Below are positions 54,601 through 56,787 of a DNA stretch of 64,000 bases, one piece after another. Source of the DNA: Anolis carolinensis (lineage: Eukaryota); the NCBI RefSeq assembly GCF_035594765.1, contig NC_085846.1, forward strand, positions 10,155,190 through 10,219,189, given 5' to 3'. Positions within the stretch are counted from its first letter, which is position 1, and each line of letters opens with the position of its first letter. The position numbers were made by a program.

Positions 54601-56787
54601 TTCCTGGACTATATTACTTTGGGATTTTCATGAGACATTTGAATTACTGCTGGGTTATCATCTATTGCTAACCATTTTTTGGATTCTACATCCTCTTTCC
54701 TTATTCCTCTTTTTTCATATGTTGTATGTGTTTTTACAGAAAAATTGATTGTTTTTCTTTGGATTCATGTGTGGTGCTGTGGTTATAGGAGTTTCCAGGC
54801 CTGAGGTGCTGCTGGTGTTATCCCATTGCAAATAGGAAGTTTTCAAGAAGAGTCCACCTCAATGTTTTACTGGGGATGAGGTGGGGTAATCACCATCCTT
54901 CTTGCGCACCCTGTGTTTACACTGGCAGAATTGTCTTAGGCCAGGATGAAAGAGGGAAAGTGTCTCTGCCAAAATCGGAATGGGGCACCCAAACAATCAG
55001 GTCAAGCCCTAATATGGGGGGGGGGGGGGTGTTACTAGAATTTTGAACAGTCACAAACAATTTTAATGGAGTTTTTCTAAAAACTAAAAGGAGATGGCTA
55101 CAATTATCAAGTAGATAACAGACTAGCTAATGTGTTCAGTTGAGTGTGTGGGGCAGGCAAAATCATGACAGTATATTTGAAACTGCAATGAAAGCTGTGT
55201 GAATATGCATTTCTGTGTCCAACTGATTCATGTCTACTCAAAAATAAGCCTTAGCTCTAATTAGCTCCTATGATGACTTTTATTTTTGACTTTGGTTGCA
55301 GTTTGCAAAAAGACATTTACAGAAAGGAAAGCTTCAGGAGAAATTCAATAGAAATTCAATAAATCACAAGCTTAAGCATAAAAGAAATTGGCATGATATA
55401 TTTCCGATAGAGGAATATACTATACATTAGCATAATACCAAACCTAATATTGGTCTTACATATACTGATTCTTCAATTCAAACTAAGACTGGGACCCATC
55501 CTTCTGATGAAATTATGAGGATAAAATATAGATCATTACTTTGTACCAGAATATCATCTCTCATCAGGACATTTTATTAACCTTAGGAACCAAATTCTAA
55601 ATAAGAGACAACAGATGATAAATGAATAAACAGAAACTTTCTTTAATGCTTTCTTTTCATTACTTGCTCCTTTGTATTCATATCAGGCCTCAGAATAATG
55701 ATATAGCATTTGGGGAAAAATATAAAACCAAGTAATCCGGCACTGGAAGCTAAGATTGAGAAGATCTCCACGGCCACCATGTATTTCCCCTTGGAGCTCA
55801 AGTATGTTGGCACAAAGGAAATCCACACACTGCAGAAGACCAACATACTGAAGGTGATGAACCTGGCAAAGAAAGCTGACGTGAAACTGCAAATGGACAG
55901 GAAACCCATAAAACCCAAGAGGCAATAAAACATGGTGATTGACCCTTCATTACACTCCAGAATAATTTCTTCAGCCATTGAGTTCACATCAAGATCAGGA
56001 AATGGTGGAAAGGTAGACAGCCACACTGTACAAATGGTGGCTTGAATGAGCAAGCTGGAAAGAACAATGGACGTGGCCATTCTTTTCCCCAACCATTTCC
56101 TCCACTTGGATTCAGGCTTGGTGGCTTGGAAAGCAAGAATCACAGTGATAGTTTTTGCCAACACAGAAGAAATGGCCACTGAGAAGATGATGCCAAAAGC
56201 TGTCTGACGAAGGAGACAGGTCATCTTCTGTGGCTTTCCAATGAACAGCAGAGCACAAAGGAAGGAGAGCAGGAGGGAGAGGAGGAGGGTGTAGGTGAGG
56301 GTCCGATTATTGGCCTTGACAATGGGAGTGTCCCGGTGTTTGAGGAAGATCCCAAGCACCACAACAGTCACACAAAACAGGAAAAGAGCAAAGCTGGCCA
56401 AACCTGTTCCAAATGGGTCTTCAAAACCAAGGAAAATTATATATTTGGGGATGCAGAAATCCCTCTTCTTGTTTGGGTAATGATCTTCTGGACACTGAAA
56501 GCAGTTATCCACATCTAGGGAAAAGGAAACATTGACATACATGTGGCAACCTTACTTAAAGTCAATTGATATAGTCAAAATATTATTTTGAAAGCCTGTA
56601 GTAAAGCTTATGGCATCAACATTTCCACATTCCATGTCCTAGATATGTTAGGTAATTAAATATTTAAAATGCATGCTTTGATAGATAATTGCATCAAACT
56701 ATACCATTGAAGAAGATAAAAGTGAACTTATCTAGATAATTCACTATAGGAATATTCTAAAATAACTAGAAATAGACTAGGAGAAAT

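What the first reader, a model, noticed from the sequence alone, without database searches (positions are those of the whole stretch)
55850..55875. Gene F keeps its frame but has lost the entire [10 protein letters not shown] loop
Seen: a clean 30-nt deletion (equivalent to D 31800-31829) between imperfect repeats cttggc and cctggc. All other F exons and splice sites in view are intact. Established: the PxxFNEAK motif of intracellular loop 3 is among the most conserved in class C GPCRs (mGluR, CaSR, T1R, V2R), contributes to G-protein coupling, and these receptors work as dimers. Inference: F is either a cryptic pseudogene that ORF-based counts would call intact, or a ligand-binding, non-signalling partner or decoy.
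Basis: partly seen in the sequence, partly recalled or inferred. Interest (0 to 1): 0.65.

Follow-up and report, generated by a model that had tools for sequence, protein, structure and literature searches.

The report
Young loop deletion in lizard V2R
One copy in a tandem array of green-anole vomeronasal receptor genes has a clean 30-base in-frame deletion that removes the conserved G-protein-coupling loop, and it is most likely a very recent, probably still polymorphic, loss-of-function allele rather than a new kind of receptor.

Summary
The window is a minus-strand tandem array of V2R (class C GPCR) genes, and its closest database proteins are from Anolis carolinensis, so I do not take it for human. 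Gene F's last exon is 872 nt against 902 nt in paralogs B-E. It lacks exactly the 30 nt of D 31800-31829, so [18 protein letters not shown] becomes FFARFITF. The junction is at 55862|55863.

F exons 2-6 are open, with canonical splice sites and no other change at conserved sites. Only the last 51 nt of exon 1 are in view.

Two things are new. A UniRef anole protein (P0028) matches F at all 746 other residues but keeps [10 protein letters not shown]. An older RefSeq model (P0121) carries the deletion with a different junction residue (K, not R). So the lesion is very young and probably polymorphic, or F has a near-identical twin.

Among 371 other homologs that cover this region, none lacks the loop. 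CaSR and mGlu5 work makes these residues key for G-protein coupling.

The best reading is a cryptic null or non-coupling allele. The decoy or partner idea has no support yet. Interest is low to moderate.

The parts
55643..56514 (-). Gene F exon 6 (7TM domain plus stop codon), 872 nt. It carries the 30-nt in-frame deletion.
   Evidence: Exon boundaries from the paralog alignment: acceptor ...ccctag, stop TAA. Open frame. Pfam 7tm_3 242.8 bits.
55862..55863 (-). Deletion junction. On the coding strand GCC AGG|TTC gives A-R|F, and the ten residues [10 protein letters not shown] are missing.
31800..31829 (-). The 30 nt in paralog D that F lacks. They encode [10 protein letters not shown], that is ICL3 plus the first turn of TM6.
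   Evidence: Gapless alignment to CaSR KLPENFNEAK.
57891..58017 (-). F exon 5 (cysteine-rich NCD3G domain), 127 nt.
   Evidence: Pfam NCD3G 54.3 bits.
58914..59141 (-). F exon 4, 228 nt.
60786..61631 (-). F exon 3 (Venus-flytrap domain), 846 nt.
   Evidence: Pfam ANF_receptor 62.3 bits.
62928..63219 (-). F exon 2, 292 nt.
   Evidence: Pfam ANF_receptor 25.8 bits.
63950..64000 (-). Last 51 nt of F exon 1 with its GT donor. The rest of exon 1 lies outside the window.
56353..56442 (-). Tract inside F exon 6 that looks like paralog C. It shows that gene conversion is active in the array.
   Evidence: F equals C at 18 of 19 sites where C and D differ. Elsewhere in the exon F equals D at 83 of 92 such sites.

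Best explanation
F is a non-C ('specific') V2R gene in a tandem array of the green anole. This copy carries a real and evolutionarily very young 30-bp in-frame deletion, made by slippage or microhomology-mediated joining between the imperfect repeats GCCAGG and GCCAAG.

The deletion removes the whole third intracellular loop and the first turn of TM6. By homology this covers CaSR K796-K805, which includes L797, P798, F801 and the ionic-lock Glu.

The most likely consequence (inferred, not shown) is a receptor that cannot couple to G protein and probably folds or traffics poorly. That would make it a cryptic null or strongly hypomorphic allele that gene-counting pipelines score as intact. It is probably still segregating against an intact allele, as is usual in birth-and-death chemoreceptor families.
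For: **The deletion is there and clean.**

**It has been seen independently.** RefSeq model P0121 (299 aa) matches the window's F at 298 of 299 residues with no gap, so it carries the same 10-residue loss. Its start codon lies in an F-specific 13-nt intron insertion, so it comes from the F locus.

**It is young.**
- P0028 matches F at all 746 other residues (exons 2-6) and keeps [10 protein letters not shown].
- Anolis sagrei relatives all keep the loop.
- At 112 alignment columns that are at least 95% conserved in non-anole homologs, F departs at 0 outside the loop and at 6 inside it. The counts for D, E, B and C are 0, 1, 1 and 1.
- F is 9-12% diverged from D and E in introns, and dN/dS is about 0.4. 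It is therefore an old gene that was under constraint.

**The loop matters.**
- Of 240 best homologs, 224 have the motif, 15 have substitutions at full length, and only P0121 lacks it.
- Of 136 further 50%-identity representatives, 128 have the motif, 4 have substitutions at full length, 4 are truncated before TM5, and none has a loop deletion.
- The literature on CaSR iL-3 and the mGlu5 ionic lock points the same way.
- The TM3 lock partner Lys (K120 in alignment A1, invariant) is still present.
Against: - No reads, population data or expression data could be consulted, so neither polymorphism nor loss of function is shown.
- P0121's junction is FFAKFITF, not FFARFITF. Either the deletion allele acquired a substitution exactly at the junction, or there were two events, or one record is in error. 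This is unexplained.
- P0028 might be a near-identical second locus rather than an allele.
- In class C complexes ICL2 and the C-terminus also bind G protein. The human GPRC6A ICL3 indel, once called loss-of-function, was later reported as gain-of-function in knock-in mice (PMC7341878). Loss of function from a change in ICL3 is therefore not automatic.
- The homolog panels are annotated gene models. Pipelines may already have discarded aberrant copies.
Confidence: 0.6

Rival explanations
1. Non-signalling partner, decoy or dominant negative. The deleted F protein still folds, binds ligand and dimerises, for example with the single broadly expressed family-C V2R. It signals only through its partner, as GABA-B1 does through GABA-B2, or it damps signalling. 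Selection keeps it.
For: - The frame, all splice sites in view and all other conserved sites are intact.
- In snakes, non-C V2Rs are co-expressed with the single family-C gene, and the anole also has a single family-C member. Heterodimers have been proposed (PMC3590772, passages).
- CaSR signals in trans between subunits (PMC9545990).
Against: - An intact frame is what any very young in-frame deletion looks like. With 0 of 746 residue differences from the intact version there has been no time for selection to show.
- None of 371 other homologs that cover the region lacks the loop, so 'specific' V2R subunits normally keep it.
- CaSR heterodimers with one iL-3 mutant subunit signal as badly as double mutants (PMC9545990).
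- The Anolis sagrei relatives retrieved all keep the loop.
Confidence: 0.07
2. Sequence or assembly artefact, or a mix-up between paralogs. The real F gene has the loop, as in P0028.
For: - P0028 is identical to F elsewhere and holds the loop.
- The array consists of about 12-kb repeats that are 85-95% identical, which is hard to assemble.
- The two deletion records disagree at the junction codon.
Against: - Two different sequences, the window and the source of P0121, both lack exactly 10 residues at the same place.
- A clean 30-nt loss inside an otherwise perfect exon, bounded by short repeats, is not a usual assembly error.
- All four paralogs hold the segment, so a collapse onto a paralog would restore it, not delete it.
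Confidence: 0.12
3. Still a working receptor. TM5 and TM6 reconnect through a tight turn around the remaining Arg. Coupling runs through ICL2 and the C-terminus, so the variant is nearly neutral or changes trafficking or signalling only in degree, as in human GPRC6A-KGKY.
For: - The GPRC6A ICL3 indel is common in humans, and signalling is reported to persist (PMC7341878).
- ICL2 contacts dominate the description of the CaSR-Gq interface (PMC11252437).
- After the deletion, about 25 hydrophobic residues remain on one side of the Arg and about 21 on the other (sequence; inference).
Against: - The loss here is 10 residues including the FNEAK part. The GPRC6A variant is a 2-residue net change that leaves ENYNEAK.
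- Single substitutions L797A and F801A already cripple CaSR.
- The loop length is kept in 371 of 371 other homologs that cover it.
Confidence: 0.1

Closest known systems
Human GPRC6A ICL3 insertion/deletion polymorphism (ancestral RKLP versus KGKY)
   Same: A natural in-frame indel in the homologous ICL3 motif of a class C GPCR. It segregates within a species and is tied to intracellular retention, and its functional meaning is disputed (PMC7341878, abstract and passages).
   Different: It is a net change of two residues that keeps the ENYNEAK part. F loses all ten residues [14 protein letters not shown]6A is a single-copy endocrine receptor, not one member of a large chemoreceptor array.
CaSR intracellular-loop-3 loss-of-function mutations (L797A, F801A; FHH1 variants R795W, P798T/L)
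   Same: They hit the same aligned residues. They impair Gq/11 and Gi/o signalling, L797A without loss of surface expression, and they show no gene-dosage relief in heterodimers (PMC9545990, passages). F801 touches the Gq alpha5 helix (PMC11252437, passage).
   Different: They are point substitutions. The F lesion removes the whole loop and the first turn of TM6, including the Glu that pairs with TM3 Lys in mGlu5 (PMC7069277). That the mGlu5 Glu770 is the E of NEAK is my inference from residue letters and recall.
GABA-B1 type subunit of an obligate class C heterodimer (binds ligand, does not couple)
   Same: It is the model for the 'ligand-binding, non-signalling partner' idea. This is established knowledge (recalled); the abstracts listed mention the GB1/GB2 heterodimer.
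   Different: GB1 is ancient and conserved and has its own ICL3. F's state is found in this gene only, and an intact version coexists with it.
Segregating or cryptic pseudogenes in birth-and-death chemoreceptor families (OR, V1R, V2R)
   Same: There is a tandem array, gene conversion and a neighbouring copy with a frameshift (E). The lesion is limited to one copy.
   Different: Usual pseudogene calls rest on stops or frameshifts. In the snake VNO transcriptome the authors saw no large indels in V2Rs or pseudogenes (PMC3590772, passage). Here the only lesion keeps the frame.

Membership tests
Class C GPCR / V2R (vomeronasal type-2 receptor) | 7TM domain that matches Pfam 7tm_3 above the gathering score | tested here: met
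   F exon 6 scores 242.8 bits against a cut-off of 33.5. D's TM ORF scores 276.4 bits.
Class C GPCR / V2R (vomeronasal type-2 receptor) | Venus-flytrap (ANF_receptor) and nine-cysteine (NCD3G) extracellular domains | tested here: met
   Exon 2 scores 25.8 bits and exon 3 62.3 bits on ANF_receptor. Exon 5 scores 54.3 bits on NCD3G. Exons were scanned one by one.
Class C GPCR / V2R (vomeronasal type-2 receptor) | Conserved ICL3/TM6 motif (K/N)LPxxFNEAK of full length | tested here: not met
   It is deleted in F. It is present at full length in 371 of 371 other homologs that cover the region.
Class C GPCR / V2R (vomeronasal type-2 receptor) | TM3 Lys (3.50) that partners the TM6 Glu in the ionic lock | tested here: met
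   K120 of the F TM peptide is invariant in the 44-sequence alignment A1. Its Glu partner lies in the deleted segment.
Intact (potentially functional) V2R gene | Complete open reading frame over all six exons with canonical splice sites | tested here: inconclusive
   Exons 2-6 are open and all splice sites in view are AG/GT. Only 51 nt of exon 1 are in the window. I did not build a joined coding sequence.
Intact (potentially functional) V2R gene | Expression in vomeronasal neurons, surface trafficking and G-protein signalling | not testable with these tools
   No expression data, reads or bench tests were available.
Classical pseudogene | Premature stop, frameshift or broken splice site | tested here: not met
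   None in F exons 2-6. Neighbour E does have a 1-nt insertion in exon 3, which is 847 nt against 846 nt.
Maintained non-coupling subunit (GB1-like) or decoy | The loop-less state conserved across individuals, species or paralogs | tested here: not met
   It is found only in this gene (the window and P0121). An intact, otherwise identical version exists (P0028), and the A. sagrei relatives keep the loop.
Maintained non-coupling subunit (GB1-like) or decoy | Physical pairing with a coupling-competent partner | not tested
   No complex prediction was run. The partner, the single family-C V2R, is not in the window. Co-expression is known only from snakes (PMC3590772).

The most novel reading that the evidence does not exclude
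The loop-less F is a naturally occurring 'half receptor'. It would be a specific V2R subunit that has lost its own G-protein interface yet still reaches the dendritic membrane with the pan-expressed family-C V2R and signals only in trans through it. If so, the specific subunit of V2R heterodimers is needed for ligand binding only. The two junction variants (R and K) would point to recurrent origin or long persistence of such an allele.
Probability: 0.06. Interest if true: 0.6.

Novelty: new member of a known kind. Interest (0 to 1): 0.25.

Why it matters
Chemoreceptor repertoires are usually counted by open reading frames or HMM hits. By either rule this copy counts as intact: it scores 242.8 bits on 7tm_3 and a RefSeq protein model exists. 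Yet it lacks a loop that all 371 comparable relatives keep, and point mutations in that loop disable CaSR. It is a concrete example of a frame-preserving null that inflates 'functional' gene counts.

If the allele proves to be expressed, it would be a natural tool for asking whether the specific subunit of a V2R dimer needs its own G-protein interface. As one probably polymorphic lesion in one member of a large and fast-turning gene family, its wider importance is modest.

Tried and rejected
**Provenance.** I could therefore not establish which assemblies hold the intact, K-junction and R-junction versions.

**Structure (inconclusive).** I ran AlphaFold2 on the exon-6 peptides of F (alignment A1, 44 rows) and D (A2, 43 rows).
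- Both models have low confidence: mean pLDDT 53.9 and 55.8, pTM 0.49 and 0.53.
- D shows TM5 as a helix at 192-216, a coil at 217-223 and TM6 as a helix at 224-249. The deleted residues 218-227 therefore cover the loop and the first TM6 turn.
- F shows no TM6 helix. Its pLDDT is 31-45 over residues 210-289, against 46-65 in D.
- At this confidence, and because AlphaFold is not a stability predictor, I treat this as inconclusive. I ran no fold search for that reason.

**Other steps.**
- The repeat finder found no exact repeat of 6 nt or more at the D locus. Only the imperfect hexamers exist.
- dN/dS of F against D, E and B is 0.40, 0.39 and 0.38. This describes the time before the deletion. 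A test for the time after it is impossible, because there are no differences from P0028.
- I considered and rejected a hidden exon or splice change. The 30 nt lie inside exon 6 and are too short for an intron.
- Complex prediction was not used. No partner is in the window, and a pass would not have changed my odds much.
- One paper search failed on a 2-letter term and was resent corrected.

**Literature.** Searches for [18 protein letters not shown] and XP_016850859 found 0 papers. A search on V2R, intracellular loop and in-frame deletion listed nothing relevant, judging by titles and abstracts only. Supplements are closed. The supplementary V2R lists of PMC3590772 might show how this gene was counted.

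Full report
**What the window is.** Stop-to-stop ORFs on the minus strand show five 7TM exons about 300 codons long: 3705-4652, 17983-18909, 31580-32515, 44020-44955 and 55643-56551. They also show five Venus-flytrap exons about 315 codons long, spaced about 12 kb apart.
- Pfam gives 7tm_3 for the former and ANF_receptor for the latter.
- A sixth gene, A, shows only its upstream exons at the low end.
- The closest database proteins are named vomeronasal type-2 receptor 26(-like) of Anolis carolinensis (90-100% identity). Anolis sagrei comes next at no more than 84%.
- I therefore take the window for green-anole DNA, not human. It contains no N.

**The observation.**
- F reads GATGAAC|CTGGC with the junction at 55862|55863. 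D has 30 further bases there, at 31800-31829.
- B and D hold the identical segment; C and E each differ from them at one base in the 42-nt stretch read (E inside the 30 nt, C in its last base).
- On the coding strand, D gives [18 protein letters not shown] and F gives FFARFITF.
Such 5-of-6 pairs occur at 1.15% of window positions.
- The window's junction has only 1 nt of true microhomology.

- Alignment of the five paralogs fixes F's exons: exon 2 at 63219-62928 (292 nt), exon 3 at 61631-60786 (846), exon 4 at 59141-58914 (228), exon 5 at 58017-57891 (127) and exon 6 at 56514-55643 (872, against 902 in B-E).
- Every site in view has an AG acceptor or GT donor, and exon lengths keep the same phases as in D.
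- No exon has an in-frame stop. Each exon hits the expected Pfam domain.
- Only the last 51 nt of exon 1, with its donor, are in the window. The start of the gene is unseen.

**Is F otherwise decaying?** For each exon I aligned the five paralog peptides with database homologs that cover the exon. A. carolinensis models were left out. The panels held 85, 45, 117, 274 and 302 sequences. I counted departures at columns that are at least 95% conserved, 112 columns in all.
- F departs at 0 columns outside the loop and at 6 inside it (L, P, F, N, E, A).
- D departs at 0 columns, E at 1, B at 1 and C at 1.
- F is about 9-12% diverged from D and E in introns.
- Summed exon counts give dN/dS of 0.40, 0.39 and 0.38 against D, E and B.
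- F is therefore an old, constrained gene with a single lesion.

**Three versions of F in public proteins.**
- P0028 (UniRef, A. carolinensis, 756 aa) maps best on F. It is identical to the window at all 746 residues other than the ten: exon 2 105/105, exon 3 243/243 of those it includes, exon 4 67/67, exon 5 42/42 and exon 6 290/290. It reads [18 protein letters not shown]. It also shares F's private substitutions and the C-like tract.
- P0121 (nr, named XP_016850859.1 by its source, 299 aa, a single-exon model) matches F at 298 of 299 residues without a gap. It therefore has the deletion, but it reads FFAKFITF. Its Met lies in a 13-nt intron insertion private to F.
- The K junction corresponds to a deletion that starts 2-6 nt further along, with 4 nt of microhomology (GCCA). 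The window's R junction has 1 nt.
- There may have been one deletion followed by a transition at the junction codon, or two events between the same imperfect repeats, or an error in one record. I cannot tell which.
- What follows is this. The deletion is seen in two different sequences. An intact and otherwise identical version also exists. So the lesion is very young and probably polymorphic, or F has a near-identical twin.

**How unusual is it?**
- Of the 240 best homologs from the two length classes, 224 carry [FY]NE[AGST]K, 15 carry substituted motifs of full length, and only P0121 lacks the loop.
- Of 136 further representatives at 50% identity, 128 carry the motif, 4 carry substituted full-length loops, 4 are models truncated before TM5, and none has a loop deletion.
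- So 371 of 371 other proteins that cover the region keep its length. These are annotated models, which may be biased against aberrant genes.

**What the loop does.**
- D aligns to CaSR structures without a gap. [10 protein letters not shown] lies on KLPENFNEAK.
- From passages of PMC9545990: L797A, and F801A in earlier work, in CaSR iL-3 impair signalling. Neither F706A nor L797A lowers surface expression. R795W and P798T/L are FHH1 variants. One mutant subunit in a heterodimer is as bad as two.
- From a passage of PMC11252437: F801 makes hydrophobic contact with the Gq alpha5 helix.
- From passages of PMC7069277: in mGlu5, Lys665(3.50)-Glu770(6.35) is the inactive-state ionic lock, and Asn767 of ICL3 bonds to ICL1. 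That Glu770 is the E of NEAK is my inference.
- F keeps the TM3 Lys (K120, invariant in A1) but has lost the Glu.

**Structure modelling.** AlphaFold2 models of the exon-6 peptides were of low confidence for both F and D. They are reported as inconclusive under Tried and rejected.

**Most likely mechanism.**
- Shown: a clean, frame-keeping loss of ICL3 and the TM6 start, in an otherwise constrained gene. The loss is very recent.
- Inferred: the product cannot form the G-protein pocket and may be retained in the cell. This copy would then be a cryptic null or hypomorphic allele that pipelines count as intact (7tm_3 at 242.8 bits; a RefSeq protein model).
- The array shows the usual birth-and-death signs. 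E has an extra A in an A-run near the end of exon 3, which is 847 nt. F's exon 6 carries a 90-nt C-like conversion tract.

**The partner or decoy idea.**
- From passages of PMC3590772: the anole and the corn snake each have a single family-C V2R. In snakes that gene is expressed in most vomeronasal neurons together with one non-C receptor, and heterodimers are suspected.
- With five or more close tandem copies, the window's genes are of the non-C kind (inference).
- A non-coupling specific subunit that signals through the C subunit is thus conceivable. However, nothing favours it. The state is private to this gene, it coexists with an intact version, and all other specific V2Rs keep the loop.

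**Closest precedent.** The closest precedent is the human GPRC6A ICL3 indel (RKLP versus KGKY). It is polymorphic and retained inside cells, and its functional reading is disputed (PMC7341878). It warns against equating an ICL3 change with a null, but it is a much smaller change.

**Print and novelty.** Searches for the motif and for the accession found no paper. A broader search listed nothing relevant by title or abstract. Supplements could not be read.

**Verdict.** This is a new member of a known kind, namely a frame-preserving, probably segregating loss-of-function lesion in a chemoreceptor array. Interest is low to moderate.

Noticed in passing
window about 48555-48561 (gene E exon 3, 49386-48540, minus strand): E's exon 3 is 847 nt where B, D and F have 846. 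There is an extra A in an A-run about 20 nt before the donor, which shifts the frame (DLQKNAAMAG instead of DLQKMQSWQ). Public models of E (P0039, P0042, P0043) get round it with odd splicing. E may be a true pseudogene, or this may be a homopolymer error.
   Followed up: partly
window 56353-56442 (F exon 6): This 90-nt tract is C-like at 18 of 19 sites where C and D differ. The rest of the exon is D-like at 83 of 92 such sites. It looks like a gene-conversion mosaic, so conversion could also spread or erase the deletion.
   Followed up: partly
window 55860-55865 against protein P0121: The public model with the same deletion has Lys at the junction where the window has Arg (AAG versus AGG). 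The two correspond to deletion break-points 2-6 nt apart between the same imperfect repeats. This is unexplained.
   Followed up: partly
window about 56543-56556 (intron upstream of F exon 6): F has a private 13-nt insertion that creates the ATG used as the start codon by the single-exon RefSeq model P0121. That model's N-terminus is intronic.
   Followed up: no
window 124-498 and 1761-1910: These are exon 2 and a likely exon 1 of a sixth V2R gene (A), whose downstream exons lie before the window start.
   Followed up: no
whole array (public models P0028, P0038-P0044, P0122-P0126): Every public protein model retrieved for these genes is partial or mis-spliced. For example, P0028 lacks exon 1, 39 residues of exon 3 and the last 9 residues of exon 4. 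The NCBI models are 311-571 aa. Repertoire counts for this array taken from annotation would be unreliable.
   Followed up: partly
window 17983-28000 (gene C): C is the divergent member. It aligns to F only in exon 6 at the DNA level, and its exon 3 is 849 nt. It is the copy closest to an Anolis sagrei protein (P0067, 80-88% per exon).
   Followed up: no
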